Virus record (IMG/VR): IMGVR_UViG_3300031994_000007
DNA from: a virus
Length of the DNA: 64,000 nucleotides
Reading direction: 5' to 3' (one strand)
Made by a program: the position numbers and the translations under genes
Shown: positions 48,321 to 58,049 of the stretch, one piece after another
How the letters are laid out: the number at the start of each line of letters is the position of its first letter
How positions within the stretch are numbered: the stretch's first letter is position 1
Notes under the pieces: model-generated
Databases searched by the model: none
What the model was told of the DNA's origin: nothing
What the model saw: the letters and a program-made list of their open reading frames with translations, nothing else

Positions 48321-48626
48321 TTATTTTTCATTAAAATAAATACTATCTTCAAAATGAAATCCAATAAATCCTTTTAATTGCATTTTACTTACATATCTTC
48401 CAATATTAATAGTATTTGGGTGGTATTCATTTAATTTATTCCATTCTTCTTGTATAAATGGAATATCTAGTTCTTTACAAATTTCTAATATATTATCTTT
48501 AAAATTATTTTTTATACATTCTTTACAATAATGGCTACTTCTAATTAAATGTTTACCTTCAGTATAATGTAAATAAAAATCTTTTAAATCTTTATATGTA
48601 TTACATAATTTACAATATTTTTCCAT
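48321..48626 (-). CDS. zinc-ribbon protein (101 aa), paralog of N-terminal domain of 47018..48244
   Basis: Uninterrupted ORF. 'CKLC...FYLHYTEGKHLIRSSHYCKEC' plus a shared 'EEWNKL...GRY(I/V)SKM(K/Q)LK' motif. Confidence 0.45.
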   Translation of the reverse strand: MEKYCKLCNTYKDLKDFYLHYTEGKHLIRSSHYCKECIKNNFKDNILEICKELDIPFIQEEWNKLNEYHPNTINIGRYVSKMQLKGFIGFHFEDSIYFNEK

Positions 48627-48701: not shown

Positions 48702-49760
48702 TCATTTTTTCTTATTTCGGCAGCATTTACAGATGGAATAAAAGCCATCCTTACTGGTTTTATTTTTACTAAAATATTTGTTATGCGCCAATTTAACTTG
48801 ACCGCATCTACTGCATCGTTTAAATTTTCCGGGTTTTACTTGGGTATAATACCAATTTAAATATTCATCCTCAGCAGCGGATGCTATTAATGTTGGAATT
48901 TTACGACGCCATAAACTGGAAATATATTCAACGCTATGTTTTATACCGAATTCTTGTTGGAGAGCTATTTGAATATCTATATTTTGCATTCCATCAATTT
49001 TATATTCAACAAGTCGTTTATACAATGGATAAGCTTCTAATGCTTTGTCGCATATCTATTCAAAATCATAAATTAAATACCACATATCATTTTCAAAATA
49101 ACCCCAGCTATCTTCTTTTAGTTTTGAATAATTACATAAAATACCAGAACAAACAGCTGGGTCTATTAAAGTAATTCCTTTAGAAATTAAATTATCATCA
49201 TTATCAATTTCTATATCTCCTTCTAATGGAATAACATTTTTTGAATGAGTAATTTTTGTAAGAGTAATTGGTCTACGATATGCATTTTTAATTATATATT
49301 GATCTTTACGCAGTTCAATTAAAGTAGATTTAATAATATAAGCCTATCTACCTTCTGCTGTTTTTAATTTAGTTTCCCAAATATTTATGGCTTCTTTTAA
49401 TTGTTGTAAAGGTTGTATTTCTTCTATATCTTTTTTTGTTATTGTTATTTTTGGCTAAAATATAATATTTTTATTTTCTGTTATTAAATTATAAATTCCG
49501 TCTTCGCCATTTTCAAATTGGGACACAAGCCCTTCAAAAGAGGTTTCTCGTTTATTTACAGTAGTCATACGGTTGTCAGTTAAAATTTTTCGTTCTTTAC
49601 GCTCTTGTTTCTCCATACATAAAATGAGATAATCAGCCATAATTTCTAAGTATTTTTCTCCTGGGTCTGGATTTTCTTGTAAAATTTGTTTGATTAATTC
49701 ATTTCTATCTTCTGGGTTGTCAAGCGTATAGTCTAATTTAATCAAATTATCAACCTCCAC
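48702..49760 (-). CDS. hypothetical protein with C-terminal zinc ribbon (352 aa, GTG start, 3 in-frame TAG)
   Basis: First gene of the minus-strand late operon. C-term 'CSRCGQVKLAHNKYFSKNKTSKDGFYSICKCC'. TGA 48702. Confidence 0.4.
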
Positions 49761-49781
49761 TTAACGATTTCTCTATCATAG

Positions 49782-49811
49782 ATTATACTAAAAAATTTTT
49801 TGTTTGACAAA
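49782..49811 (-). promoter_or_regulatory. minus-strand promoter for late operon (TTGTCA-18-TATAAT)
   Basis: Its -35 overlaps the -35 of the divergent plus-strand promoter within the palindromic TTTGTTTGACAAATTT. Confidence 0.45.
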
Positions 49812-49832
49812 TTTTTAAAAAAATTATATAAT
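49804..49832 (+). promoter_or_regulatory. plus-strand consensus promoter TTGACA-17-TATAAT for the abrB-like/DUF488 unit
   Basis: Perfect hexamers with a 17-nt spacer. Confidence 0.6.
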
Positions 49833-49871
49833 ATTATTAGAAAAAATATATAAAAAAGAGGTTAAAAAAAA

Positions 49872-50126
49872 ATGAAGTTGATAAAAGAAAATACTACTCG
49901 TAAAGTTGATACTCTCGGCAGAGTTAGTATTCCGAAAGGAATGCGAGATAGACTTGATATTAAAGATGGCGAAGAAATGGATTTTTATTTATTGGAAGAT
50001 GATTGCGGAAATCAATATGTTGCATTAACAAAACAAATTGAAGATAATAATAAATATATTGTTGCCGCAAATGTTTTAAAAGAACTTAATTTAGAAGTAC
50101 CAGAAAAACTAGAGGAATTAATTTGA
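49872..50126 (+). CDS. AbrB/MazE/SpoVT-family transcriptional regulator (84 aa)
   Basis: 'RKVDTLGRVSIPKGMRDRLDI' is a SpoVT-AbrB swapped-hairpin motif. RBS AAGAGG. TGA overlaps the next TTG start. Confidence 0.7.
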   Translation: MKLIKENTTRKVDTLGRVSIPKGMRDRLDIKDGEEMDFYLLEDDCGNQYVALTKQIEDNNKYIVAANVLKELNLEVPEKLEELI

Positions 50127-50467
50127 TTTATACTAGTTATTTTAGTAATTATAAAAATTTTCCTCAAAATTTTATTCCTATTGGAATAACTCGTTATCCT
50201 CCTAAAAATTGGAAAGGAATTAATTTAGATATATTAGCGCCAAGTGAAAAATTATTAAAAATGTACAAGAATAAAGAAATAGATGAATATATTTTTAAAA
50301 AAAGATATTTTAAAGAATTATCTGATAAAAATTTAACGCCGGCAAACGTGCGACAATAGCTTGAAAAATTTGGGAATATTATTCTATGTTGTTATGAAAA
50401 ATCAGATGATTTTTGTCATCGACATCTTTTGGTTGAATGGCTTGGCGAAGGATAGGAGTTACCGTAA
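50123..50467 (+). CDS. DUF488-family protein requiring TAG read-through (114 codons if both TAGs sense)
   Basis: N-term MIYT... and C-terminal 'LCCYEKSDDFCHRHLLVEWL' DUF488 signature. The signature lies downstream of the in-frame TAG at 50357. Second TAG at 50453, then TAA 50465. Confidence 0.6.
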
Positions 50468-50647
50468 AATCGAAATGAAAAATCATTTAGAAATTTTTTA
50501 GGTCAGACCAAATGATTTTGTGTATAAAAAAATTTTTTTATCCTGAAACTATACGCCCCCCATTTTATTCTCAGTAAATATCTACAAAAAGTATTGGATA
50601 TTTTTCTGAAAAAATTTTAATAGTAATGAATGAACACCCCTTATTTG

Positions 50648-50690
50648 CTCGCCCCGCTGACAGCCAAAGCGGGGCGAGTTTCGCATTGTT
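50648..50690 (+). terminator. GC-rich intrinsic terminator at the AT-rich/GC-richer boundary
   Basis: CTCGCCCCGCT-GACAGCCAA-AGCGGGGCGAG followed by TTTCGCATTGTTT. Confidence 0.55.
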
Positions 50691-50699
50691 TCCAGTTCG

Positions 50700-50885
50700 T
50701 AAATTTTTACGCCAAAATGTTACAAAAATGTAACAGACCGTTACATCCTGTAACCAAGAGGACTAAACATACATTTAATTAACTTTTATTACAAAATAGT
50801 TACAATAAATAACTCTATTGTAACCAAGAGTATCAAACACATGTTTAGTTATTTTAATTTACAAAATAGTAACAAATTAATTAAA
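50700..50885. repeat. iteron/operator-like region: GTTAC-N4-6-GTAAC inverted repeats and two ~68-bp direct repeats (GTAACCAAGAG...)
   Basis: gttacaaaaatgtaac and gttacatcctgtaac. Two units both begin gtaaccaagag and end ttacaaaatagt(t/a)aca. A third ccaagagag copy at about 50990. Confidence 0.5.
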
Positions 50886-51215
50886 AAAATGACAAATTAA
50901 AAAAATAAATTCTTTAATACACTAAATCGTAAAAAAGCCAGTCAAATACTAAATTAACATTATTCTTTAACACATTAAAGTAATAAAAAACCAAGAGAGA
51001 TAATAGTAACAATGTATCATCAAATAATTGCGCAATAGGCGAGATAGATAAAGAAGCTTCACAAAGCAAGGCAGAGACATTCGTCAAGCCTATACGTTAG
51101 CATAACACAACAAGACTATGAATAAACAATAAGACAAAAGAGTAGATAAACAACAAACTAAATACGATAGTAATAGTAATACATTAATTATTATAATAAT
51201 TACAAAAGAAAAACA

Positions 51216-51244
51216 TTGACAAACAGCACCACTTGTGGTATAAT
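51216..51244 (+). promoter_or_regulatory. consensus promoter with the -10 region flanked by a 9-bp inverted repeat (GCACCACTT/AAGTGGTGC); drives a short non-coding leader
   Basis: TTGACA-17-TATAAT. No RBS or ORF before the next promoter. Downstream small hairpins and a T-run (51250-51300). Confidence 0.5.
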
Positions 51245-51318
51245 AGAAGTGGTGCCTTGCGATAAGGTAAGCGGCGACCTTTGTTAAAAAAATAACAATC
51301 TTTTTTATAAAAAAACTC

Positions 51319-51347
51319 TTGACATTTGCCCGGGCTTGTGATATTAT
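51319..51347 (+). promoter_or_regulatory. class A promoter (TTGACA-17-TATTAT, GCCCGGGC box in spacer)
   Basis: Sequence consensus. Confidence 0.6.
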
Positions 51348-51396
51348 AATACCAGAAAGAGAGAGATAAATAAATTAAAAGAAAGAGGTAAACAAA

Positions 51397-51624
51397 ATGA
51401 AAGAGATTAAGTACGCAATTCACAATAACAAGAATGAGGTTGTTGATTGGGCTAACACCGAAGCAGAAGCAGAAGCACTTGTCAAGAAAGCCGCTAAAAG
51501 AGGCTGGAAACGCACCATTCACAAAATCGAATGGACGATCAATGAAAACCCTGAAATCTGGGAACTCGAAGGTGGCAAGGAAGATCCCACCAAGGTGGAA
51601 TGGGGCAATAATGAAGAGTGGTAA
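51397..51624 (+). CDS. hypothetical early protein (75 aa)
   Basis: RBS AGAGG. TAA stop embedded in terminator hairpin GAAGAGTGG-TAAAAA-CCACTCTTC+T7. Confidence 0.65.
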   Translation: MKEIKYAIHNNKNEVVDWANTEAEAEALVKKAAKRGWKRTIHKIEWTINENPEIWELEGGKEDPTKVEWGNNEEW

Positions 51625-51655
51625 AAACCACTCTTCTTTTTTTATAAAAAAACTC

Positions 51656-51684
51656 TTGACAGATTGGCACATCCATGTTATAAT
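51656..51684 (+). promoter_or_regulatory. promoter TTGACA-17-TATAAT driving structured RNA copy 1
   Basis: Sequence consensus. Confidence 0.6.
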
Positions 51685-51690
51685 ACAATC

Positions 51691-51738
51691 ACAGGTTGAG
51701 GGAAACCACACGCGGGTAGTCGAGGGGAGAGACTAACT
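51691..51738 (+). ncRNA. repeated structured RNA element, copy 1
   Basis: ACAGGTTGAGGGAAACCACACGCGGGTAGTCGAGGGGAGAGACTAACT. Covarying helices across the 7 copies. Confidence 0.45.
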
Positions 51739-51781
51739 AAATAGTAACAAAAGAAAAACAAAAAGTTTCTAAAAATAGTTG

Positions 51782-51810
51782 TTGACAAATAACATCCTTT
51801 GTGCTATACT
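51782..51810 (+). promoter_or_regulatory. promoter TTGACA-17-TATACT
   Basis: Sequence consensus. Confidence 0.55.
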
Positions 51811-51846
51811 ATAATCACAAAGGGAAGAGAAAAGGAGATAACAAAG

Positions 51847-52155
51847 ATGATTAACATTAGAACTATCAACAAACTCACTGAGAATGATGGACTTACTCTT
51901 AAAAATGGTAAGCTTATCACTTACAAAAGCGGTTGGCAGGTTGCCACCGAGGGCGTAGAGTGCCACACCGCACGGGAAGCCATTAACGCGGTTAAGGCTT
52001 ACGGCGGTAACTGTGGGGTGTGGTTCGCTGGTGGTATCTACTACATCGACAAAAGCCACAGAGTCAATACCAAGCGCGAGGCGCTTGAAATTGGCAAAGC
52101 TCATAATCAAATCTCTGTTCTGGGCTGGCGTAAAATGGTTTTAGCGTACTGCTAA
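51847..52155 (+). CDS. hypothetical early protein (102 aa)
   Basis: RBS AAAGGAGATAACAAAG-ATG. 14-bp-stem terminator (AAAATGGTTTTAGC/GCTAAAACCATTTT) overlapping the stop. Confidence 0.65.
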   Translation: MINIRTINKLTENDGLTLKNGKLITYKSGWQVATEGVECHTAREAINAVKAYGGNCGVWFAGGIYYIDKSHRVNTKREALEIGKAHNQISVLGWRKMVLAYC

Positions 52156-52183
52156 AACCATTTTATTTTTTATAAAAAAATAC

Positions 52184-52212
52184 TTGACAAGTCAATCTAT
52201 CTATGCTATAAT
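52184..52212 (+). promoter_or_regulatory. promoter TTGACA-17-TATAAT driving structured RNA copy 2
   Basis: Sequence consensus. Confidence 0.6.
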
Positions 52213-52218
52213 ACAATC

Positions 52219-52268
52219 ACAGGTTGAGGGAAACCGCACTCGGGCAGGAGAGGGGAAGGACTGACTTA
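52219..52268 (+). ncRNA. repeated structured RNA element, copy 2
   Basis: ACAGGTTGAGGGAAACCGCACTCGGGCAGGAGAGGGGAAGGACTGACTT. Confidence 0.45.
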
Positions 52269-52318
52269 AAAGTAACAAAAGAATGACAAAAAATTTTTCT
52301 ATTTTTTTTGAAAAAATG

Positions 52319-52347
52319 CTTGACAAATCGCCCGGGCTTTGCTATAA
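52319..52347 (+). promoter_or_regulatory. class A promoter TTGACA-aatcGCCCGGGCtttgc-TATAAT
   Basis: Sequence consensus. Confidence 0.6.
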
Positions 52348-52380
52348 TACAATCAGAAAGAACAAGGGAGGACAAAAAAA

Positions 52381-52782
52381 ATGACTTACTACTTCGACAT
52401 GGATGGCGTTCTGGCTGACTTCCACTCTACTTACACTGAGCGCGCACAGGCTTTGAGCCGCGACTATCTTGCCAATCTCGCCCCGTTCGTTGAGAATGTC
52501 AAGACTGTCCGGAACCTCATTGCTCACGGTGAAAAGGTTTACATTCTCACCAAGGCCGCTAACGATGATGCCAAGGCTGGCAAAATTGACTGGCTGGCAA
52601 AGTACATCCCGGAAATTACGGCAGAACAGTTTATTTGCATCGTAGGCTCTGGTCGCAAGGTTGATTACATTCGTGAAGCTGGCATTCTTGTGGATGATGA
52701 TATTAAGAACATTCGGCAGTGGGTCAAAGGTGGCTTTGAGGGCTATCTGGTAGAGACTAAAGGTGCCACGGTTATTCTCTAA
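52381..52782 (+). CDS. HAD-superfamily 5'(3')-deoxyribonucleotidase-like protein (133 aa)
   Basis: N-terminal 'YYFDMDGVLADF' (DxDGV HAD motif I) and NT5C-like layout. RBS GGGAGGA. Paralog at 63036. Followed by hairpin terminator 52763-52800. Confidence 0.65.
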   Translation: MTYYFDMDGVLADFHSTYTERAQALSRDYLANLAPFVENVKTVRNLIAHGEKVYILTKAANDDAKAGKIDWLAKYIPEITAEQFICIVGSGRKVDYIREAGILVDDDIKNIRQWVKGGFEGYLVETKGATVIL

Positions 52783-52916
52783 CCGTGGCGCTTTCTATTT
52801 TGCCCGGGCAAAATCGCCAGCTCCGAAAGGCCCCGGACTTCACCACGCTAAAGTGGTGAAGTAAAAAACGCGAATGATTGTTAAACAAATAACAATAAAA
52901 AATGTCCCGAAACTAC

Positions 52917-52945
52917 TTGACAATAGGCACAATGTGTGGTAGAAT
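52917..52945 (+). promoter_or_regulatory. promoter TTGACA-17-TAGAAT
   Basis: Sequence consensus. Confidence 0.5.
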
Positions 52946-52977
52946 ACAGTCACCAAGAGGAAAAGAGGTAGACAGCA

Positions 52978-53382
52978 ATGACAATTAGATTCGCAACGAC
53001 TGCTGATGCTATCCGCATTATTAGGGCTATACAGAATAAACGCATGGACTACAATACGCCGCAAGATGTGCGGGAAGATGTGAACGCGGGGCGGCTGATT
53101 GTAGCAGAGGAAAACGGCAAGCTTTTAGGGTCTGTAGCTGTCGTGTATAAAGTCCATCGTGGTTATTATGCTATCATGAGAATGTGCGTGTATTCAAAAA
53201 CCAGCAAGGGCAAAGGGGTAGCAAGTGCGTTAATTGACTACGTGTTAGCTCTTGGCCTTGGCACTTATGGTGCAACGCCTTGGAATGACAATCCGGCCAT
53301 GATTCACATTTTTGTTAAAAGAGGTTTTGAGTACCAATACACATTCAAAAATAAATACGATTTTTATAAAAAAGGGGCTTGA
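52978..53382 (+). CDS. GNAT-family N-acetyltransferase-like protein (134 aa)
   Basis: 'LGSVAV...MRMCVYSKTSKGKGVASALIDYVL' resembles the acetyl-CoA-binding motif A. The TGA stop is the TTGACA -35 of the next promoter. Confidence 0.55.
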   Translation: MTIRFATTADAIRIIRAIQNKRMDYNTPQDVREDVNAGRLIVAEENGKLLGSVAVVYKVHRGYYAIMRMCVYSKTSKGKGVASALIDYVLALGLGTYGATPWNDNPAMIHIFVKRGFEYQYTFKNKYDFYKKGA

Positions 53383-53407
53383 CAAGTTCAAGCCCTTATG
53401 TTATAAT
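53379..53407 (+). promoter_or_regulatory. class B promoter (TTGACA embedded in GGGGCTTGA...TCAAGCCC hairpin)-17-TATAAT
   Basis: Sequence consensus. Confidence 0.6.
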
Positions 53408-53436
53408 ACAATCACAAAAGAAAAGGAGATAAAAAA

Positions 53437-53607
53437 ATGTTTAATGTTTACTACATCCGCAATGGGTATGAACTCAACGCTAAATTTGAAAAAAGAGGAA
53501 GTGCTCTTTTATTTGCTCATAATTTTGTATCTATGTTAGGCGGAGATTATGCCGCTGTTACTGATACAGAAACAAATAAAACTATACAAGTTTATAGCAG
53601 ATACTAA
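53437..53607 (+). CDS. hypothetical early protein (56 aa)
   Basis: RBS AAAGGAGATAAAAAA-ATG. Terminator AGGCTGA-TTCAGCCT+T6 at 53608-53640. Confidence 0.6.
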   Translation: MFNVYYIRNGYELNAKFEKRGSALLFAHNFVSMLGGDYAAVTDTETNKTIQVYSRY

Positions 53608-53659
53608 AAAAGGCTGATTCAGCCTTTTTTATTTACATTAAAAAAAATGAAAAAAGTGC

Positions 53660-53688
53660 TTGACAAATCGCCCGGGCAATGTTATAAT
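53660..53688 (+). promoter_or_regulatory. class A promoter driving structured RNA copy 3
   Basis: TTGACA-aatcGCCCGGGCaatgt-TATAAT. Confidence 0.6.
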
Positions 53689-53694
53689 ACAATC

Positions 53695-53745
53695 ACAGGC
53701 TGAGGGAAGCCCCACGCGGGGAGACGAGGGGAGAGACTGACTTAA
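53695..53745 (+). ncRNA. repeated structured RNA element, copy 3
   Basis: ACAGGCTGAGGGAAGCCCCACGCGGGGAGACGAGGGGAGAGACTGACTT (compensatory changes relative to copies 1/2). Confidence 0.45.
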
Positions 53746-53795
53746 AAGTAACAAATTGATGACAAAAAAATTTTTAAAAAAAATGAAAAAAGTGC

Positions 53796-53824
53796 TTGAC
53801 AATTTGCCCGGGCTGTGCTATACT
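53796..53824 (+). promoter_or_regulatory. class A promoter TTGACA-17-TATACT
   Basis: Sequence consensus. Confidence 0.55.
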
Positions 53825-53876
53825 ATAATCAGAAAGAGGGAAGGAAAACCCAAATAAACCGGAAAGGAAGAAAAAG

Positions 53877-53984
53877 ATGGAATTTTACAGTATGGAACAG
53901 TTCGAGATTCTGGGCGACCTGATGGAAGACTATCAGGAGTGGCTGGACTTTGAAGAGGACATGAAAACTAATCCTTGGGGCTGA
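53877..53984 (+). CDS. very acidic micro-protein (35 aa)
   Basis: MEFYSMEQFEILGDLMEDYQEWLDFEEDMKTNPWG. RBS GGAAAGGAAG. Stop within hairpin CCTTGGGGCTGAAAAAAGCCCCAAGG. Confidence 0.5.
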   Translation: MEFYSMEQFEILGDLMEDYQEWLDFEEDMKTNPWG

Positions 53985-54014
53985 AAAAAGCCCCAAGGAA
54001 ATTAAAAAAAGTAC

Positions 54015-54043
54015 TTGACAAGTAAGACAAAGTATGTTATAAT
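54015..54043 (+). promoter_or_regulatory. promoter TTGACA-17-TATAAT
   Basis: Sequence consensus. Confidence 0.6.
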
Positions 54044-54075
54044 ACAACCAGAAAGAAAGAAAAGGAGATAAAAAA

Positions 54076-54246
54076 ATGTACATCGTAACTGCTTACAAGA
54101 TTTGGGAAGAGTTTGAAGACTACAACAAAGCCGAACTGTACTTCGCCGCTTTGAAACATGGTGGGTACAAGTATGTGGAACTGAAAAAGAAAACCACGAC
54201 CGACAAATACGAATACTTTGAAAGTATCAAAATCTTTGTAAAATAA
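54076..54246 (+). CDS. hypothetical early protein (56 aa)
   Basis: RBS AAAGGAGATAAAAAA-ATG. TAA stop. Confidence 0.6.
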   Translation: MYIVTAYKIWEEFEDYNKAELYFAALKHGGYKYVELKKKTTTDKYEYFESIKIFVK

Positions 54247-54259
54247 TTAAAAAAGGGGC

Positions 54260-54289
54260 TTGACAAATCAAGCCCCTATGTGATATAAT
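54260..54289 (+). promoter_or_regulatory. class B hairpin promoter
   Basis: GGGGCTTGACAAATCAAGCCCC...TATAAT. Confidence 0.55.
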
Positions 54290-54321
54290 AAAGGCACAAA
54301 AGAAAAAAGGAGATTAAAAAA

Positions 54322-54471
54322 ATGACTATTCGTGAATTTTATAATTGGGCTGTCGCTAATGATGTTGAGGATTTTTGGTTTGGTGAAATGTTCCCCAATG
54401 GGATTGAAGTCTTTGAAATTGAAGATTTCACAATCAATACTGATAATAATTTTGTTTCTATCAACAATTAA
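54322..54471 (+). CDS. hypothetical early protein (49 aa)
   Basis: RBS AAGGAGATTAAAAAA-ATG. Confidence 0.55.
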   Translation: MTIREFYNWAVANDVEDFWFGEMFPNGIEVFEIEDFTINTDNNFVSINN

Positions 54472-54492
54472 AAAAATAATTAAAAAAGGGGC

Positions 54493-54521
54493 TTGACAAG
54501 ACAAGCCCCTTGTGTTATAAT
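54493..54521 (+). promoter_or_regulatory. class B hairpin promoter
   Basis: GGGGCTTGACAAGACAAGCCCC-TTGTGT-TATAAT. Confidence 0.6.
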
Positions 54522-54553
54522 GTAATCACAAAAGAGAAAAGGAGATAAAAAAA

Positions 54554-54709
54554 ATGAAAATGATTCAGAACATCGAATGCGGTAACATCTTCCCCTATAC
54601 CCTTGAGGGATTGATCGAAATGAGAGAAGAAGCCCGTGAACTTTACGATATTGAAGATCCCACTAATGCGGTGAGCATTTCCGAATACTATCAAATTATC
54701 ACGCTGTAA
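54554..54709 (+). CDS. hypothetical early protein (51 aa)
   Basis: RBS AAAGGAGATAAAAAAA-ATG. Strong terminator TCACGCTGTAAAAAGCGTGA+T9 (54695-54730). Confidence 0.6.
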   Translation: MKMIQNIECGNIFPYTLEGLIEMREEARELYDIEDPTNAVSISEYYQIITL

Positions 54710-54738
54710 AAAGCGTGATTTTTTTTTTGAAAAAGTGC

Positions 54739-54767
54739 TTGACAAATCGCCCGGGCAATGCTATAAT
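54739..54767 (+). promoter_or_regulatory. class A promoter driving structured RNA copy 4
   Basis: TTGACA-aatcGCCCGGGCaatgc-TATAAT. Confidence 0.6.
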
Positions 54768-54773
54768 ACAATC

Positions 54774-54824
54774 ACAGGTTGAAGGAAACCGCACCGGGGC
54801 AGAGGAGGGGAGAGACTGACTTAA
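54774..54824 (+). ncRNA. repeated structured RNA element, copy 4
   Basis: ACAGGTTGAAGGAAACCGCACCGGGGCAGAGGAGGGGAGAGACTGACTT. Confidence 0.45.
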
Positions 54825-54863
54825 TAGTTACAAAAGAAAAACAAAAAATTTCTAAAAAAAACT

Positions 54864-54892
54864 CTTGACATTTGCCCGGTCTTGTGATATTA
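54864..54892 (+). promoter_or_regulatory. class A-like promoter TTGACA-17-TATTAT
   Basis: Spacer tttGCCCGGtCttgtga (one mismatch to the box). Confidence 0.55.
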
Positions 54893-54945
54893 TAATACCA
54901 GAAAGAGGGAAGGAAAACCCAATAAACCAGAAGGGAAAAGAAAAG

Positions 54946-55377
54946 ATGAAAGAACTATACAGAGTGGAGCACATGACCAGAAGTGACTATGATGAATACA
55001 TGTGCGGGGGCTATAACTATAGGGTGCAGAAAATAAATGTGCTCGCGGAAAACCTGCAGGACGCCGCCCAAATCGTTAAAGAAATGTTCCCGTCTCATGT
55101 AATTAATGATGGTTATGTCAAAACTGTCGCTGAACTTGAGGCAGAACAAGCGGCAAAGGAAGCAGAATGGGAAGCCGAAAAAAGGAAAAAAGCAGAGCAG
55201 AAAGCCAAAAAAGAAGCTTTTGAAAAAGCCCATCCTGAGATTGTGGCAGAGCGCAAAAGAAAAGCAAAAATTACCAGAGCAAAAACAACAATTAAAGGAC
55301 TTGAAAAGCAGATTGCAGAAGCTGAAAAGAATCTTGCATACTGGAAAGCAAAACTTGAAGAACTTGAAAAGGGCTGA
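54946..55377 (+). CDS. hypothetical early protein with Lys/Glu-rich coiled-coil C-terminus (143 aa)
   Basis: RBS-proximal ATG in frame with track ORF 54865..55377. Terminator AAAAGGGCT-GAAAAA-AGCCCTTTT+T. Confidence 0.6.
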   Translation: MKELYRVEHMTRSDYDEYMCGGYNYRVQKINVLAENLQDAAQIVKEMFPSHVINDGYVKTVAELEAEQAAKEAEWEAEKRKKAEQKAKKEAFEKAHPEIVAERKRKAKITRAKTTIKGLEKQIAEAEKNLAYWKAKLEELEKG

Positions 55378-55407
55378 AAAAAGCCCTTTTCTTTTTTTAG
55401 AAAAGTG

Positions 55408-55436
55408 CTTGACAAATCCCCCAACCTATGATACAA
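55408..55436 (+). promoter_or_regulatory. promoter TTGACA-17-TACAAT driving structured RNA copy 5
   Basis: Sequence consensus. Confidence 0.55.
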
Positions 55437-55442
55437 TACAAT

Positions 55443-55492
55443 CACAGGCGGAGGGACGCCCCACGCGGGGAGCCGAGGGGGAAGACTGACTT
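55443..55492 (+). ncRNA. repeated structured RNA element, copy 5
   Basis: ACAGGCGGAGGGACGCCCCACGCGGGGAGCCGAGGGGGAAGACTGACTT. Confidence 0.45.
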
Positions 55493-55533
55493 TAGGTTAC
55501 AAAATGGTAACAAAAAATTTCTAAAAAAAGTAG

Positions 55534-55562
55534 TTGACAAATGCCCGGGCTTGTGATATTAT
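55534..55562 (+). promoter_or_regulatory. class A promoter TTGACA-aatGCCCGGGCttgtga-TATTAT
   Basis: Preceded by a GTTAC-N6-GTAAC inverted repeat (55506-55521). Confidence 0.6.
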
Positions 55563-55597
55563 AATACCAGAAAAAGAAAAGAAAGGAAGTAAATACA

Positions 55598-55771
55598 ATG
55601 TATAGAATCAAAATCGAAAGCGAACATGCCCCCAATACTTACAAATGGTATAATAACCCTCAGCAAGCGCATCTTGTAGCCTATACCATTATTAAGAATA
55701 AGGACGCAAATATTGTAACAGTGGAAAACCTTAAAGAAAAAAAGATTGAAAAAATTTATAAAAGGGCTTGA
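55598..55771 (+). CDS. hypothetical early protein (57 aa)
   Basis: RBS GAAAGGAAG. TGA stop formed by the -35 TTGACA of the next promoter. Confidence 0.55.
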   Translation: MYRIKIESEHAPNTYKWYNNPQQAHLVAYTIIKNKDANIVTVENLKEKKIEKIYKRA

Positions 55772-55796
55772 CAAATAGCCCGGCCTATGGTATAAT
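55768..55796 (+). promoter_or_regulatory. class B-like promoter (GGGCTTGACAAATAGCCC)-TATAAT
   Basis: Sequence consensus. Confidence 0.55.
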
Positions 55797-55830
55797 AAAG
55801 GCACAAAGAAAGAAAAGGAGATAAAAGAAA

Positions 55831-55989
55831 ATGAACGTTAACGAAATCAAAGAAAGAATTGAAAAACTTGAACGCTGGTGCTGGTTTGAGCAGATGGCAG
55901 ATTTTATGAACTGGACAGCCTACAACAAAGCACAGGCTGAAATCAAAGAGTTGAAAAAAAAGTTAGCAGAAATTGAAAAAGGGGCTTGA
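55831..55989 (+). CDS. hypothetical early protein (52 aa)
   Basis: RBS AAAGGAGATAAAAGAAA-ATG. C-terminal KGA-TGA inside the next -35. Confidence 0.55.
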   Translation: MNVNEIKERIEKLERWCWFEQMADFMNWTAYNKAQAEIKELKKKLAEIEKGA

Positions 55990-56014
55990 CAAAACAAGCC
56001 CCAGATGGTATAAT
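55986..56014 (+). promoter_or_regulatory. class B hairpin promoter
   Basis: GGGGCTTGACAAAACAAGCCCC...TATAAT. Confidence 0.6.
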
Positions 56015-56048
56015 AAATACAGAAAGAAAGAAAAGGAGAATTAAAAAA

Positions 56049-56333
56049 ATGAGTTATTTTATGGGAAATGGTCGTGCCGATACTTGCCGCCACAACGATG
56101 AAGTTTATAAAGGCAAGGCGGTTGAGATGATGATTGATGTGCTGGAAACCCGCGACGGCTTTGAGCTTCGCAAGGCAAGCGACAGCACTGGAGCGGCGGC
56201 AAAGTTCCGCATCTTTTGGGACGGTGAGTGCATCAGCACCGTCTATAATGAAAAGGAAGCACGGGCACTGTTTAACGACTTCGCCCCAGCGCCCCAGCGG
56301 AAGGCGGGACGCCCTAAGAAGAATGCGGCATAA
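56049..56333 (+). CDS. hypothetical early protein (94 aa), basic C-terminus
   Basis: RBS AAAGGAGAATTAAAAAA-ATG. TAA stop. Confidence 0.6.
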   Translation: MSYFMGNGRADTCRHNDEVYKGKAVEMMIDVLETRDGFELRKASDSTGAAAKFRIFWDGECISTVYNEKEARALFNDFAPAPQRKAGRPKKNAA

Positions 56334-56379
56334 AAAGCCGCTTCTTCATCGCCCGGGCAAAGATTACAAAAGAAAAACA

Positions 56380-56408
56380 TTGACAAATAGCCAAAAGCAT
56401 GTTATAAT
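56380..56408 (+). promoter_or_regulatory. promoter TTGACA-17-TATAAT
   Basis: Preceded by tcGCCCGGGCaaag just after the upstream stop. Confidence 0.6.
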
Positions 56409-56440
56409 GTAATCACAAAAGAGAAAAGGAGATAAAGAAA

Positions 56441-56617
56441 ATGACTTACGAAGAAATGTACGACTTGCTGGCCAATACCCTTGGGATCGATGAGAATGCC
56501 CTTGATTTGGCTTTTGCTGTTGGTGGATGCAATGAAGAAACTGCTGAAAGAATTTTATTCTATTACACTGGCTGGCATTCCTTTGAGGGCTGGTTGGGTG
56601 AGCAGGAAGAGGGCTGA
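56441..56617 (+). CDS. acidic hypothetical early protein (58 aa)
   Basis: RBS AAAGGAGATAAAGAAA-ATG. Terminator GAGGGCT-GAAAAA-AGCCCTC+TTTTG. Confidence 0.6.
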   Translation: MTYEEMYDLLANTLGIDENALDLAFAVGGCNEETAERILFYYTGWHSFEGWLGEQEEG

Positions 56618-56662
56618 AAAAGCCCTCTTTTGCCCGGGCGGAAAAGTTACAAAAAAAAGTCA

Positions 56663-56691
56663 TTGACAAACCAAAAGATGTATGGTATTAT
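56663..56691 (+). promoter_or_regulatory. promoter TTGACA-17-TATTAT
   Basis: Sequence consensus. Confidence 0.55.
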
Positions 56692-56721
56692 AATACCAGA
56701 AAGAGAAAAGGAGATAAAAAA

Positions 56722-56895
56722 ATGAAAGTCAAAGATTTAATGAACATTCTCAGCAAGTATGACATGGACGACGATGTAAGGGTTATTAGTTATGATGATA
56801 ACGCAATAATTCAAATTGGTAATTACAGACCCTCTGCTGGCCCCTATGGTGACAAGTATCCTTTCTTTATTCCGTATGGTGAAATTACTACTTGA
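56722..56895 (+). CDS. hypothetical early protein (57 aa)
   Basis: RBS AAAGGAGATAAAAAA-ATG. TGA stop. Confidence 0.6.
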   Translation: MKVKDLMNILSKYDMDDDVRVISYDDNAIIQIGNYRPSAGPYGDKYPFFIPYGEITT

Positions 56896-56913
56896 AAAAA
56901 ATAAAAAAGGGGC

Positions 56914-56942
56914 TTGACAAAACAAGCCCCGCATGATATAAT
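56914..56942 (+). promoter_or_regulatory. class B hairpin promoter
   Basis: GGGGCTTGACAAAACAAGCCCC...TATAAT. Confidence 0.6.
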
Positions 56943-56974
56943 ACAATCACAAAGAAAGAAAAGGAGAAATAAAA

Positions 56975-57100
56975 ATGATTACTTGCGCTGAATGTCTGTG
57001 CCATAATGAGTGCCCGCTGTATCGTGGTGAAGATACCGACCCCTGTTGGTATGAAAAAATCAGAAAAGAAAAGGAGAACAAAGAAAATGAAAAAGTTTGA
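56975..57100 (+). CDS. Cys-rich micro-protein (41 aa; putative zinc-binding)
   Basis: MITCAECLCHNECPLYRGEDTDPCWYEK... RBS AAAGGAGAAATAAAA-ATG. Confidence 0.5.
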   Translation: MITCAECLCHNECPLYRGEDTDPCWYEKIRKEKENKENEKV

Positions 57101-57224
57101 AGCTAAGATTACCCGCGACAATGCCGAAATCAAGTGCATTGTGGAAGCTATTGACAAAGACCACGCCGCCCGCCGCTTCTTTGAGATTCTGGGAGAGCAC
57201 GGCCTGAAAATCAAGGAACTGTAA
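57087..57224 (+). CDS. hypothetical early protein (45 aa), overlaps previous ORF by 14 nt
   Basis: RBS AAAAGGAGAAC inside the upstream ORF. In frame with track ORF 57006..57224. Terminator GGAACTGTAAAAAGTTCC. Confidence 0.5.
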   Translation: MKKFEAKITRDNAEIKCIVEAIDKDHAARRFFEILGEHGLKIKEL

Positions 57225-57292
57225 AAAGTTCCTTGACTTTTGCCCGGGCGATTTACCTCAAAAATTTTAAGTAAAAAAATTAAAAAAGAGGC

Positions 57293-57321
57293 TTGACAAA
57301 TGCCCGGGCTTATGTTATTAT
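57293..57321 (+). promoter_or_regulatory. class A promoter TTGACA-aatGCCCGGGCttatgt-TATTAT
   Basis: Sequence consensus. Confidence 0.6.
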
Positions 57322-57352
57322 AATACCAGAAAGAACAAAGGAGATAAAAAAA

Positions 57353-57562
57353 ATGAACATGAATGAGAAAATCAAAGAACTGGAAGCCAAAGGGTACAAC
57401 AAGCATGACACCTATGAAGTGGATGAAGCCGCGAATGGTGGATGGGTTATTACAGTTTATACCAGTCTGTGGGGTTTTGAAGAGTATTTGTATGATACAG
57501 ACGGAAATCCCATTGAAGCAACAGAAATCAATCTGTATGGCAAGCCCCAAAAAATTTATTAA
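57353..57562 (+). CDS. hypothetical early protein (69 aa)
   Basis: RBS AAAGGAGATAAAAAAA-ATG. In frame with track ORF 57293..57562. Confidence 0.6.
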   Translation: MNMNEKIKELEAKGYNKHDTYEVDEAANGGWVITVYTSLWGFEEYLYDTDGNPIEATEINLYGKPQKIY

Positions 57563-57570
57563 ATTGGGGC

Positions 57571-57599
57571 TTGACAAATAAAACAAAGCATGTTATAAT
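57571..57599 (+). promoter_or_regulatory. promoter TTGACA-17-TATAAT
   Basis: Sequence consensus. Confidence 0.6.
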
Positions 57600-57633
57600 A
57601 AATACAGAAAGAAAGAAAAGGAGAAATAAAAAA

Positions 57634-57943: not shown

Positions 57944-57949
57944 ATAATC

Positions 57950-58000: not shown

Positions 58001-58049
58001 AGTTACAAAATAGTAACAATAATTTTTTTAGAAAAAATAAAAAAAAGGC

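What the first reader, a model, noticed from the sequence alone, without database searches (positions are those of the whole stretch)
50700..51215. Iteron/operator region with GTTAC-N4-6-GTAAC inverted repeats and 68-bp direct repeats
Multiple GTTAC..GTAAC inverted repeats lie at 50703, 50736, 50795 and 50870, and recur after RNA copies 5 and 6 at 55506 and 57995. Two direct repeats both begin GTAACCAAGAG. They sit in an AT-rich non-coding gap between the boundary terminator and the first array promoter. This is a candidate replication origin or repressor-binding array.
Basis: seen in the sequence. Interest (0 to 1): 0.5.

Follow-up and report, generated by a model that had tools for sequence, protein, structure and literature searches.

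The report
Protein-binding repeat cluster before early genes
A cluster of short mirror-symmetric DNA words sits in the untranscribed gap just ahead of a gut or rumen phage's early genes and is most likely a landing pad for a regulatory DNA-binding protein, not a demonstrated replication origin; related phages carry landing pads for known host proteins at the same spot.

Summary
Exact GTTAC-N4-7-GTAAC occurs 4 times in 64 kb against 0.06-0.075 expected (50719, 50740, 55496, 58002). There are three weaker copies (50788, 50809, 50858) and a 70-bp, not 68-bp, tandem duplication.

The sites lie between a strong GC hairpin (50648-50678) and the first early promoter (51216). Against the relative L085 the pentamer arms changed at 1 of 50 positions, against 22 of 100 outside the sites (p=0.0007). 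L003 carries one symmetric double change (GTTGC..GCAAC).

More distant relatives keep the conserved core and hairpin but swap the repeats. L006 has four exact chromosomal parS sites. L012 has 13 sites that fit the clostridial Rex-box consensus. Others carry CTTTA-N6-TAAAG or GTTAG-N6-CTAAC.

The same site types recur in other terminator-to-promoter gaps of this phage, and in unrelated 12-kb phi29-like phages.

Best reading (about 0.5): an operator-like platform for a dimeric or oligomeric DNA-binding protein that controls the early region. The protein could be host-encoded or of the AbrB type. The binder is unknown.

The iteron-origin reading survives at about 0.2, because the identical 16-mer forms iterons inside an O-like initiator gene of another phage. 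However, no initiator gene, DnaA box or uniqueness was found here.

The parts
50648..50678 (+). GC-rich hairpin (11-12 bp stem, 9-nt loop) followed by TTTCGCATTGTTT. This is the boundary terminator of the AbrB/DUF488 unit and the left edge of the repeat region.
   Evidence: The fold is -27.1 kcal/mol with z = -4.45. It is 94-96% identical in L003 and L085. Ten relatives have an equally strong hairpin at the same place with a different stem sequence.
50719..50734 (+). Site 1: GTTAC-AAAAAT-GTAAC, extended TGTTAC..GTAACA. A perfect dyad.
   Evidence: Exact hit. Invariant in L003, L084 and L085. The identical 16-mer is a tandem iteron in the O-like gene of L165.
50740..50754 (+). Site 2: GTTAC-ATCCT-GTAAC, a perfect dyad. 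Together with site 1 it gives four GTWAC pentamers spaced 11, 10 and 10 bp apart.
   Evidence: L003 has GTTGC..GCAAC, a symmetric double change. L085 has GTCAC..GTAAC.
50788..50824 (+). Sites 3 and 3': ATTAC-AAAATA-GTTAC and ATAAC-TCTATT-GTAAC. Four GTWAC-like pentamers spaced 11, 10 and 11 bp apart, which also form a 14-bp imperfect inverted repeat.
   Evidence: (I21). The arms are unchanged in L085 and one arm base differs in L003.
50858..50873 (+). Site 4: TTTAC-AAAATA-GTAAC (one mismatch).
   Evidence: The arms are invariant in L003 and L085; only the spacer changes.
50740..50879 (+). A 70-bp tandem duplication (50740-50809 and 50810-50879). Each copy carries one site followed by CAAGAG and one TTACAAAATAGTWAC site.
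   Evidence: the repeat finder family D1 has a spacing of 70 bp and 77% identity over 57 nt. Pairwise alignment.
50876..50920 (.). The most A+T-rich segment of the gap (7-12% G+C in 40-bp windows), directly right of site 4.
   Evidence: It is poorly conserved: 60-68% identity, with a 15-bp deletion in L003 and L085.
50912..50980 (+). Two copies of a second site family, CTTTA-N6-TAAAK: CTTTAATACACTAAAT at 50912-50927 and CTTTAACACATTAAAG at 50965-50980.
   Evidence: (D3). The same words occur in dozens of copies in relative L258. They also occur in L221, L193, L259 and in the phi29-like L222.
51200..51244 (+). TTACAAAAGAAAAACA abutting the -35 of the first early promoter P1 (TTGACA-17-TGGTATAAT).
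   Evidence: The same 16-mer abuts the -35 of the promoter at 56380. P1 and its short hairpin transcript are 95-96% identical in L003 and L085.
51281..51298 (+). TTGTTAAAAAAATAACAA: one mismatch from the Clostridiaceae Rex-box consensus, centred about 66 bp upstream of the start of the next promoter. A second copy lies at 52878-52895.
   Evidence: The consensus is quoted in PMC9600882 and PMC5367854. Distances were worked out.
55496..55511 (+). Dispersed copy GTTAC-AAAATG-GTAAC after RNA unit 5, about 66 bp upstream of the start of the promoter at 55534.
58002..58017 (+). Dispersed copy GTTAC-AAAATA-GTAAC after RNA unit 6, about 76 bp upstream of the start of the promoter at 58050.
   Evidence: Equivalent copies follow RNA units in L003 and L085.
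50473..50597 (+). Family-wide conserved single-copy non-coding core to the left of the hairpin. It comprises box A (AAATGAAAAATCATTT), box B (A7T7-ATCCTGAAAC-N6-CCCCCC, 50526-50561) and box C (AAAGTATTGG, 50588-50597).
   Evidence: Found in 27 distinct relatives, down to 62% TerL identity. Box B occurs once in the window.
49872..50126 (+). AbrB/SpoVT-type DNA-binding protein gene (84 aa). It is the only recognisable DNA-binding gene next to the array and a candidate partner.
   Evidence: Pfam MazE_antitoxin/SpoVT-AbrB 1.1e-7. PDB sequence hits to the N-domains of SpoVT, AbrB and Abh. It is syntenic in 34 loci.

Best explanation
The region is a platform of binding sites for a sequence-specific DNA-binding protein. 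It lies in the untranscribed gap between the terminator of the AbrB/DUF488 unit and the first promoter of the early-gene array.

The unit is the palindromic pentamer GTWAC. It is repeated once per helical turn, usually as GTTAC-AAAAWN-GTAAC, so that 2-4 units lie on one face of the DNA. Ten such units form three blocks within 160 bp.

This is one 'word' of a shared vocabulary of 16-bp (5+6+5) sites. The phage family stacks these words, in lineage-specific combinations and copy numbers, after the conserved hairpin and in other terminator-to-promoter gaps of the early region.

Inferred mechanism: when the cognate protein occupies the array, it couples firing of the early programme to the state of the host, by repression, insulation or activation from upstream. 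It may also couple replication or segregation. Phi29 does this with host Spo0A and Spo0J sites, and SPbeta with its SPBRE/MrpR sites.

The binder is not identified. The leading candidates are a host global regulator and the AbrB/SpoVT family, either the phage's own copy 600 bp away or the host's.

Shown: the sites, their statistics, their selective conservation, and their context here and in relatives.
Inferred: that a protein binds, which protein it is, and the regulatory outcome.
For: - Enrichment and phasing of the sites.
- The arms are conserved against the flanks: 1/50 against 22/100 changed positions relative to L085, p=0.0007. Sub-region identities peak at the hairpin, the site cluster and P1.
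- The symmetric double substitution GTTGC..GCAAC in L003 keeps the local dyad.
- Single sites fold only to -4 kcal/mol with z about -1.8, so they are unlikely to be RNA elements.
- Further copies lie 66-76 bp upstream of the starts of early promoters. Another terminator -> CTTTA-N6-TAAAG x5 -> ATTACAAAGTGGTAAC -> promoter module lies in the same phage, 8 kb beyond the window.
- At the same locus, relatives carry arrays of known protein-binding sites. L006 has 4 exact parS sites. For sites within one mismatch of the Rex-box consensus, L012 has 13, L207 has 12 and L221 has 9 (with the consensus).
- GTTAC sites follow the hairpin directly in the diverged relatives L258 and L193.
- Unrelated 12.4-kb phi29-like phages (L222, L232) have only one HTH gene, yet carry GTTAC-N6-GTAAC, Rex-like boxes, CTTTAG..CTAAAG and perfect parS near their true ends. 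This points to host proteins.
- An AbrB/SpoVT-type gene is adjacent. The recurrent TTACAAAA core resembles the suggested chromosomal AbrB consensus WAWWTTTWCAAAAAAW.
Against: - No binder is identified.
- The N-terminal DNA-binding segment of the AbrB-type protein is almost invariant in lineages whose repeat cassettes differ completely. It therefore cannot by itself explain the lineage specificity.
- No HTH, Rep, ParB or Rex domain is detectable in the 34 early ORFs.
- The cluster is 340-500 bp from the nearest strong promoter and overlaps none.
- The fixed -66 position of the dispersed copies may simply be inherited with the duplicated RNA-unit modules.
- GTTAC-N6-GTAAC matches no published operator found in the searched literature.
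- The match to the AbrB consensus is partial, and that consensus is itself weak.
- The identical 16-mer acts as an iteron in L165.
Confidence: 0.5

Rival explanations
1. Iteron-type origin of replication. A phage initiator of the O-like / HTH_36 type, encoded outside the window, binds the phased GTWAC units. It melts the adjacent A+T-rich stretch, and forks leave in both directions along the two divergent gene blocks.
For: - Five sites lie in 160 bp, spaced by two helical turns within pairs, with a tandem duplication.
- The 40 bp with the lowest G+C (7-12%) follow the last site.
- The cumulative GC-skew minimum is at 49-50 kb. Origins of related recoded phages have been called this way.
- In L165, exactly GTTACAAAAATGTAAC occurs three times with a 22-23 bp period inside a gene with an HTH_36 domain (1.6e-13) and a PHROG 'replication initiation O-like' match (1.5e-26). 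An A-rich stretch and recombination-type genes follow it.
- A single-copy conserved core lies next to lineage-specific repeats.
Against: - No initiator-like gene lies in the 13 kb to the right or among the neighbours tested.
- There is no DnaA-box cluster.
- The skew switch coincides with the switch in coding strand, so it is confounded.
- The A+T-rich stretch is the least conserved part and carries a 15-bp indel.
- The same site families recur in several other gaps of the early region.
- In relatives the sites are replaced by Rex boxes and parS, which are not initiator sites.
Confidence: 0.2
2. Host-factor capture for segregation, or a decoy. The array is a centromere-like or sponge site that recruits or titrates a host chromosome-organising or global regulatory protein. 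It acts on genome partition, spore entrapment or host physiology rather than on phage promoters.
For: - L006 carries four perfect chromosomal parS sites at the equivalent locus, and L034 carries two parS sites elsewhere in its locus.
- Rex-box arrays of 9-13 copies within one mismatch of the consensus (five exact in L012) do not overlap promoters.
- The cluster here also overlaps no promoter.
- The same vocabulary appears at the ends of phi29-like genomes.
Against: - The window itself has no parS.
- No partition genes were seen.
- Five sites make a small sponge.
- The sites are not unique to one locus.
- The binder is unknown.
Confidence: 0.1
3. Neutral relic. The 70-bp repeats are decayed copies of the 3' tail of the G-rich RNA units, which end in AGTWACAAAA..ACAAAAA, and have no function of their own.
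For: - All six RNA units end in AGTWACAAA followed by a second ACAA about 11 nt later.
- CAAGAGGACTAAAC in the repeats resembles GGAGAGACTGACTT of the units.
- The A-tract spacer has the same orientation in nearly all copies.
Against: - The arms are significantly better conserved than the flanks.
- The symmetric double change keeps the dyad.
- GTTAC sites sit after the hairpin in L258 and L193, which lack these RNA units.
Confidence: 0.05
4. Packaging signal. The lineage-specific repeats are small-terminase binding sites next to a conserved cleavage site (box B), as in lambda cosB/cosN or SPP1 pac.
For: - A single-copy conserved core lies next to variable repeats.
- The terminase gene is 3.7 kb away.
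- Several public contigs end within this few-hundred-bp region: L004, L068, L061, L008 and L016.
Against: - L085 and L062 read straight through the points where L004 and L061 end. Those ends are therefore assembly breaks at repeats or at a C-run.
- The ends of other contigs are scattered.
- The same sites recur elsewhere in the early region.
- No protein near the terminase gene tracks the site type.
Confidence: 0.03
5. Nucleic-acid structure. The dyads act as RNA or single-stranded-DNA hairpins, for example as weak terminators or priming signals.
For: - The compensatory change in L003.
- Sites 1 and 2 can fold together to -11 kcal/mol (+ strand) or -14 kcal/mol (- strand), with z = -4.7 and -4.0.
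- The copy at 58002 is followed by a T-run.
Against: - Single sites fold only to -4 kcal/mol, not significantly better than shuffles, and site 4 does not fold at all.
- The nested two-site fold is partly broken by the L003 changes, while the local dyad is kept.
- Sites 3 and 3' and the L193 copies are direct rather than inverted.
- The gap lies downstream of a strong terminator.
- No Rfam family matches.
Confidence: 0.03

Closest known systems
Host Spo0A boxes and Spo0J parS sites in Bacillus phage phi29 (from memory: Meijer, Castilla-Llorente, Salas and co-workers)
   Same: Short sites for host DNA-binding proteins lie next to early promoters and genome ends and tie the phage programme to host state. 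Here relatives carry exact parS sites and sites that fit the Rex-box consensus at the same locus. Phi29-like contigs L222 and L232 carry the whole vocabulary, including GTTAC-N6-GTAAC.
   Different: The binder of GTTAC-N6-GTAAC is unknown. No Spo0A boxes were seen. The arrays are much larger in relatives, with up to 13 Rex-type sites and dozens of CTTTA-N6-TAAAG sites. The phage is a large TAG-recoded relative of siphoviruses, not a phi29-type virus.
SPBRE / MrpR of Bacillus prophage SPbeta (PMC10516654)
   Same: A roughly 15-bp repeated element is scattered over intergenic regions upstream of early genes and is bound by a master repressor. The terminase here is distantly related to SPbeta YonF.
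   Different: No MrpR-like gene was found in the window, and SPBRE sequence identity was not tested. Here the sites are clustered (5 in 160 bp), lie away from core promoters, and are replaced by other site types in relatives.
Iterons of lambda-type origins inside O-like initiator genes
   Same: Dyad-symmetric sites of 16-19 bp are repeated about every two helical turns, with an A/T-rich stretch beside them. L165 carries the identical 16-mer three times in an O-like gene.
   Different: Here the sites are intergenic, no initiator gene is nearby, the sites are not unique in the genome, and the A/T-rich stretch is not conserved.
Rex operator of Clostridiaceae (TTGTTAANNNNTTAACAA)
   Same: Both have a TGTTA/TAACA half-site flavour and the 16-18 bp dyad format. 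Two boxes with one mismatch lie at 51281 and 52878. Relatives carry 9-13 copies within one mismatch of the consensus, five of them exact in L012.
   Different: In the GTTAC sites the TGTTA..TAACA halves are 2 bp further apart (N8 rather than N6), so they are not Rex boxes.
AbrB / SpoVT / MraZ-type regulators that bind phased short repeats (the MraZ part is from memory)
   Same: An AbrB/SpoVT-type gene lies 600 bp away, and a second lies further right in the same phage. The units sit one helical turn apart on an A-tract-rich DNA face. The TTACAAAA core resembles WAWWTTTWCAAAAAAW.
   Different: AbrB has no reliable consensus. The phage protein's DNA-binding segment does not co-vary with the cassette type. 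Binding was not tested.
sopC centromere of plasmid F (tandem 43-bp repeats, each with a 16-bp inverted repeat; from memory)
   Same: Tandem longer repeats each carry a 16-bp dyad. L006 has a genuine parS array at this locus.
   Different: There are only two 70-bp copies, at 77% identity. No partition genes were seen. The sites also lie at promoters elsewhere.

Membership tests
Iteron-type replication origin | Three or more initiator-binding repeats in helical phase | tested here: met
   Ten GTWAC-like units form three blocks spaced 10-11 bp apart. The dyad centres within each pair are 20.5-21 bp apart.
Iteron-type replication origin | Adjacent conserved A+T-rich unwinding element | tested here: inconclusive
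   A stretch of 7-12% G+C follows site 4. It is only 60-68% conserved and has a 15-bp indel. The whole gap is 25% G+C.
Iteron-type replication origin | Cognate initiator gene containing or flanking the repeats | tested here: not met
   None of the 34 early ORFs has a Rep, HTH_36 or DnaD domain (Pfam). Nine early ORFs and one L129 protein had no DNA-binding or replication-initiator match in PHROGs; one ORF had only a weak SbcC-like hit. The neighbours are a sigma factor, an AbrB-type protein and a DUF488 protein. The rest of the genome could not be read.
Iteron-type replication origin | A single locus per replicon | tested here: not met
   Copies lie at 55496 and 58002. There is another module in L259 and several arrays in L207 and L258.
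Iteron-type replication origin | Replication actually starts here | not testable with these tools
   The GC-skew minimum at 49-50 kb coincides with the strand switch of the genes.
Phage repressor operator sets (SPBRE/MrpR, phiC31 CIR, L5 stoperators) | One conserved 13-17 bp word repeated in intergenic regions of the early genes | tested here: met
Phage repressor operator sets (SPBRE/MrpR, phiC31 CIR, L5 stoperators) | Phage-encoded cognate repressor | tested here: inconclusive
   Only the AbrB/SpoVT-type gene is a candidate. Its DNA-binding segment does not track the cassette type.
Phage repressor operator sets (SPBRE/MrpR, phiC31 CIR, L5 stoperators) | Sites overlap or closely flank the regulated promoters | tested here: not met
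   The cluster is 340-500 bp from P1. The dispersed copies are centred at about -66 and -76.
Host-factor sites in phage genomes (phi29 type) | Match to the known operator of a host protein | tested here: not met
   GTTAC-N6-GTAAC matched nothing in the searched literature, and its spacing differs from Rex boxes. The feature is met only by other site types: parS in L006, Rex boxes in L012 and other relatives, and two 1-mismatch Rex-like boxes in the window.
Host-factor sites in phage genomes (phi29 type) | The same site is shared by unrelated phages of the same habitat | tested here: met
   The phi29-like L222 and L232 carry GTTACAAAATTGTAAC alongside parS, Rex-like and CTTTAG sites.
ParB centromere (parS) | Match to TGTTTCACGTGAAACA or to another known parS | tested here: not met
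   The window has 0 hits with at most 1 mismatch. Only the 16-bp dyad format is shared.
Rex operator | TTGTTAA-N4-TTAACAA geometry | tested here: not met
   Site 1 reads TGTTA-N8-TAACA. The separate boxes at 51281 and 52878 fit with one mismatch.
AbrB-family binding region | Bound by an AbrB-type protein | not testable with these tools
   The gene is adjacent, and there is partial likeness to the suggested consensus.
Intrinsic terminator or structured RNA | A stable, conserved stem | tested here: not met
   The sites fold to -4 kcal/mol or less, with z about -1.8 or worse. No Rfam family matches. The neighbouring GC hairpin does meet this feature.

The most novel reading that the evidence does not exclude
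Phages of gut and rumen Clostridia share a modular 'vocabulary' of high-affinity 16-bp sites for host global DNA-binding proteins. Known words are chromosomal parS (ParB/Spo0J) and the Rex box (redox sensor). At least three words have unknown readers: GTTAC-N6-GTAAC, CTTTA-N6-TAAAG and GTTAG-N6-CTAAC.

The phages stack these sites in arrays of 2 to more than 40 copies, at the entrance of their early regions and at genome ends. On this reading the window's cluster would be the operator of a still uncharacterised host regulator. The arrays would work as sensors that gate infection on host redox or chromosome state, or as decoys that titrate host regulators once the phage DNA multiplies.
Probability: 0.3. 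Interest if true: 0.75.

Novelty: new member of a known kind. Interest (0 to 1): 0.5.

Why it matters
Taken alone, the cluster is an ordinary kind of object, a repeated protein-binding site array in a phage control region, in an uncultivated TAG-recoded phage.

Its value lies in the comparison. The locus is a swappable cassette. In relatives it holds exact host parS sites or up to 13 Rex-box-type operators. The same set of site types turns up in unrelated phi29-like phages.

If host proteins read these sites, then infection by these phages is wired to host redox state and chromosome biology. GTTAC-N6-GTAAC would then give a ready-made probe for fishing out an unknown regulator of gut Clostridia.

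The work also cautions against calling origins in recoded phages from GC skew and repeats alone.

Tried and rejected
- **Crass-like identity.** The huge recoded ORFs suggested it, but it was rejected. The terminase is related to SPbeta YonF, Geobacillus E3, Enterococcus EF1/H1 and phAss-1.
- **Genome terminus at 50787.** L004 and L068 both end there, but L085 reads through, and other contig ends are scattered.
- **Nucleotide matches in the annotated phage collection.** None were found for 49700-52000. The annotated distant relatives E3 and phAss-1 gave no useful features, and the phAss-1 paper does not mention repeats or origins.
- **RNA searches.** Rfam gave no credible hit at gathering score or at E up to 5. 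The window has no tRNA.
- **DnaA boxes.** There is no cluster.
- **Cognate protein by co-variation.** None of TerL, p408, p101, sigma factor, AbrB or DUF488 tracks the site type. p101 is mosaic, but L003 keeps the sites with a different p101.
- **DNA-binding genes among the early ORFs.** None were found.
- **Box B as a repeated late promoter.** It occurs only once.
- **Literature search for GTTAC-N5/6-GTAAC.** No hits.
- **IMG/VR scan for the motif.** Only the clustered hits were informative.
- **Walking further along the genome.** This was not possible, because only window proteins can be looked up. It gave 9.4 kb more.
- **CodY, TnrA/GlnR, LytTR, LTTR and Zur box likenesses.** These were considered from memory and dropped, because the spacing or the bases do not fit.
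Full report
**Context.** The window joins two very different halves.

Positions 1 to about 50470 have about 27% G+C and negative GC skew. Long ORFs, almost all on the minus strand, appear only if TAG is read as sense: products of 3128, 2720 and 1612 aa and a 587-aa terminase. The terminase is related at 32-60% identity to those of SPbeta-like Bacillus phages, Geobacillus E3, Enterococcus EF1/H1 and the code-15 phage phAss-1. Relatives are binned with Clostridia-type MAGs.

From 51216 onward the G+C is 36-44% and the skew is positive. About 40 near-perfect TTGACA-17-TGnTATAAT promoters all point right. They drive small standard-code ORFs and repeated copies of a G-rich RNA unit.

The finding lies at the hinge. 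To its left are a phage sigma-factor gene (48702-49760, minus strand; PHROG 9e-50), an AbrB/SpoVT-type gene (49872-50126) and a DUF488 gene (50123-50467).

**Observation check.** Exact GTTAC-N4-7-GTAAC occurs four times in 64 kb, at 50719, 50740, 55496 and 58002. Shuffles give 0.06 or 0.075. With one mismatch allowed, four sites fall in 50400-51215 against 0.11 expected.

Weaker copies lie at 50788, 50809 and 50858. The two direct repeats that begin GTAACCAAGAG are real, but their period is 70 bp (57 nt at 77% identity). Tandem Repeats Finder misses them. The palindrome near 50703 is a different word and is not conserved.

One refinement matters. GTWAC is itself palindromic, and the real pattern is a run of pentamers one helical turn apart. 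The runs are 50719/50730/50740/50750, then 50788/50799/50809/50820 (with degenerate members), then 50858/50869. No other phased runs exist in the window except the two dispersed pairs. The spacer is nearly always an A-tract in the same orientation (TTACAAAA), site 2 excepted.

**Anatomy of the gap.** From left to right:
- a conserved non-coding core (box A 50473-50488, box B 50526-50561, box C 50588-50597);
- a GC hairpin at 50648-50678 (-27 kcal/mol, z = -4.45);
- the GTWAC cluster (50719-50873);
- the most A+T-rich 40 bp;
- two CTTTA-N6-TAAAK words at 50912 and 50965;
- an A-rich spacer;
- TTACAAAAGAAAAACA abutting the -35 of promoter P1 at 51216, an arrangement repeated at the promoter at 56380;
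- a short hairpin transcript and a Rex-like box at 51281.

**Close relatives.** Eighty IMG/VR loci share the terminase. Three lineages align through the gap: L003, L085 and the near-identical L084.

Identity to L085 by sub-region:

| Sub-region | Identity to L085 |
|---|---|
| DUF488 gene | 69% |
| Boxes A-C | 72% |
| GC hairpin | 94% |
| Site cluster | 86% |
| A+T-rich stretch | 60% |
| Rest of the spacer | 73% |
| P1 | 96% |

Within the cluster, the pentamer arms changed at 1 of 50 positions and the sequence outside the sites at 22 of 100 (Fisher p=0.0007). Against L003 the figures are 3 of 50 and 13 of 100, which is not significant. Two of those three arm changes form the symmetric pair GTTGC..GCAAC.

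Contigs L004 and L068 end inside the repeats, but L085 reads through. That end is an assembly break and not a genome terminus.

**More distant relatives: a swappable cassette.** The core boxes occur once each in 27 distinct relatives, down to 62% terminase identity. Ten relatives have a strong hairpin at the same place with an unrelated stem sequence. This structural conservation is expected of a terminator.

What follows the hairpin differs by lineage:
- L006 has four copies of TGTTTCACGTGAAACA.
- L012 has 13 copies of TTGTTAA-N4-TTAACAA within 550 bp.
- L221, L207, L211, L229, L059 and L257 have the same word, mixed with GTTAG-N6-CTAAC and CTTTAGCGCGCTAAAG.
- L258 has two GTTAC-N6-GTAAC sites right after its hairpin, then dozens of CTTTA-N6-TAAAG.
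- L193 has three direct GTTAC units touching its hairpin, and a GTTACAAAATGGTAAC further in.
- Others carry ATGCAT-, CTTATTA- or ACATACA-type repeats.

In L207, in L258 and in the extension of this very phage (L259), such site blocks also sit in other terminator-to-promoter gaps.

**Two of the words are known.** TGTTTCACGTGAAACA is the core of chromosomal parS, the ParB/Spo0J site (bioRxiv 10.1101/2021.02.11.430593). TTGTTAANNNNTTAACAA is the Rex-box consensus of Clostridiaceae (PMC9600882, PMC5367854, both citing Ravcheev et al. 2012). The window itself has two Rex-like boxes with one mismatch, at 51281 and 52878. Each is centred about 66 bp upstream of the start of the next promoter.

GTTAC-N6-GTAAC is not a Rex box, because its TGTTA..TAACA halves are 2 bp further apart. 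It matched no published operator in the library.

**Unrelated phages use the same words.** A scan of IMG/VR for GTTACAAAANNGTAAC returned mostly chance singletons, plus several clusters.

The most telling are L222 and L232. These are 12.4-kb phi29-like genomes (DNA_pol_B_2, Gp16 ATPase) with a 121-bp inverted terminal repeat in L222 and sequencing-adapter remnants at the L222 contig ends. They start with a Rex-like box. They then carry CTTTAG..CTAAAG repeats, a GTTAC-N6-GTAAC site (GTTACAAAATTGTAAC in L222, GTTACAATTTTGTAAC in L232) and two perfect parS sites each. They encode only one recognisable HTH protein.

Four site families in a 12-kb genome are hard to explain by phage-encoded readers. 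Host proteins are the simpler explanation.

In contrast, L165 holds exactly GTTACAAAAATGTAAC three times, with a 22-23 bp period. The repeats lie inside a gene with an HTH_36 domain and a PHROG 'replication initiation O-like' match. This is the classical arrangement of origin iterons inside an initiator gene, and it keeps the origin reading alive.

**Who binds?** No HTH, Rep, ParB or Rex domain is detectable in 34 early ORFs or in the proteins tested against PHROGs.

The only neighbour with a DNA-binding fold is the AbrB/SpoVT-type protein. A second, more canonical copy lies further right in the same phage.

Three points fit this family. AbrB-superfamily proteins bind phased short repeats on bendable A/T-rich DNA (established knowledge; the MraZ example is from memory). 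The recurrent TTACAAAA core resembles the suggested chromosomal AbrB consensus WAWWTTTWCAAAAAAW. The same paper stresses that no consensus explains AbrB binding.

One point counts against a private partnership. The protein's DNA-binding segment is almost identical in L006, L016 and L258, whose cassettes differ. I therefore name the AbrB family and an unknown host regulator as the leading candidates, and mark this as inference.

**Origin, packaging and structure readings.**
- *Origin.* In favour are the phasing, the adjacent A+T-rich stretch, the skew minimum, the L165 precedent, and the practice of calling origins by skew in related recoded phages. Against it are the absence of an initiator gene, the absence of a DnaA-box cluster, the poor conservation of the A+T-rich stretch, the confounding of skew by gene strand and the non-uniqueness of the sites.
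- *Packaging.* This reading would fit 'conserved core plus variable repeats', but the contig-end evidence dissolved.
- *RNA or ssDNA hairpins.* Single sites are too weak, several units are direct rather than inverted, and the L003 change keeps the local dyad rather than the larger two-site fold.

**Verdict.** The feature is a selectively maintained array of protein-binding sites, and it is one module of a family-wide variable cassette.

| Reading | Confidence |
|---|---|
| Operator-like regulatory platform for the early region, read by a host or AbrB-type protein | about 0.5 |
| Iteron origin | about 0.2 |
| Centromere or decoy | about 0.1 |
| Neutral relic, packaging signal and nucleic-acid structure together | about 0.1 |

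As an object it is a new member of a known kind. The wider pattern is the part worth following up: host parS and Rex operators, and unknown words, shared across unrelated phages.

Noticed in passing
window 51328-63493: The palindrome GCCCGGGC occurs 20 times, all right of 51.3 kb, against 0.08 expected. Twelve copies sit 7-10 nt after the start of the -35 hexamer, inside the spacers of early promoters. Two are extended perfect palindromes: ATTTTGCCCGGGCAAAAT at 52797 and ACAAATGCCCGGGCATTTGT at 61946. This is a strong candidate operator for early-gene shut-off. The core resembles the Noc binding site TATTTCCCGGGAAATA. It is also abundant in L003, L085 and L259.
   Followed up: partly
L006 5660-5790 (minus strand), i.e. 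the locus equivalent to window 50700-51200: Four perfect copies of the chromosomal parS core TGTTTCACGTGAAACA, 30-36 bp apart, lie directly upstream of the first early gene of a close relative (88% terminase identity). L034 has two more, and the phi29-like L222 and L232 have two perfect copies each.
   Followed up: partly
L012 5990-6540 (minus strand); also L207 6970-8125, L221 1-700, L059, L211, L229, L257: Arrays of 3-13 copies within one mismatch of the Clostridiaceae Rex-box consensus TTGTTAANNNNTTAACAA (five exact in L012) lie in the same gap, or between early genes, in related phages. Some are packed back to back every 20-25 bp. I know of no report of Rex-box arrays in phages.
   Followed up: partly
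window 50473-50597 and equivalents in 27 relatives: A deeply conserved single-copy non-coding core (CCGAAAT..AAAAT..ATTTAG; A7T7-CCCGAAATAC-N-CCCCCC, often followed by a -10-like GGTATAAT or TATACA; AAAGGTATTG) precedes the conserved hairpin. It could be a small RNA gene, a promoter for the phage sigma factor, or a cis site for replication or packaging. Function unknown.
   Followed up: partly
window 51690, 52218, 53694, 54773, 55443, 57949, 61003: There are seven copies of a promoter-driven G-rich RNA unit of about 55 nt (CACAGGYNGARGGANRCC..GGGGARRGACTGAC). Stem 1 shows clear covariation (GGUU/AACC, GGCU/AGCC, GGCG/CGCC). No terminator lies before the next promoter, and no Rfam family matches. 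L259 holds further structured RNAs of other types.
   Followed up: partly
window 1-50470 against 51216-64000: TAG is recoded in the late and structural half, including the DUF488 gene, while the early half uses the standard code, has 10-15% higher G+C and has sigma-A consensus promoters every 300 bp or so. No suppressor tRNA lies in the window. tRNA-Leu(UAA) and tRNA-Lys(UUU) lie 5-6 kb beyond the right end (L259 14908, 16016).
   Followed up: partly
window 48321-48626 (minus strand): The 101-aa zinc-ribbon protein between the p408 gene and the sigma-factor gene is mosaic. It is 98% identical in L085 and L004 but only 30% identical in L003, whose flanking genes are 97% identical.
   Followed up: no
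L222 and L232 (whole loci): These are 12.4-kb phi29-like phage genomes. L222 has a 121-bp inverted terminal repeat and Illumina adapter remnants (CTTCCGATCT) at both contig ends, which suggests true DNA ends. The first bases of both genomes are a Rex-like box.
   Followed up: partly
L165 5326-5386: Three tandem copies of (G/C)TTACAAAAATGTAAC lie inside an O-like (HTH_36) replication initiator gene of an unrelated phage, followed by genes I judged Sak-like and exonuclease-like by eye (no Pfam match for the one tested). This is a likely origin inside the gene, using the same 16-mer as window site 1.
   Followed up: yes
window 51216-51312: Promoter P1 is flanked by an 8-bp inverted repeat (CACCACTT..AAGTGGTG) around its -10. 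It drives only a hairpin RNA of about 60 nt that ends in the Rex-like box plus a T-run. The unit is 95-96% identical in L003 and L085, making it the best-conserved part of the gap.
   Followed up: no
(look-up of window 63036-63443): The index lists a contig of 0.2-1 Mb that carries this gene, but it was not shown. The phage may be much larger than its 130-190 kb relatives, or it may sit in a larger replicon.
   Followed up: no
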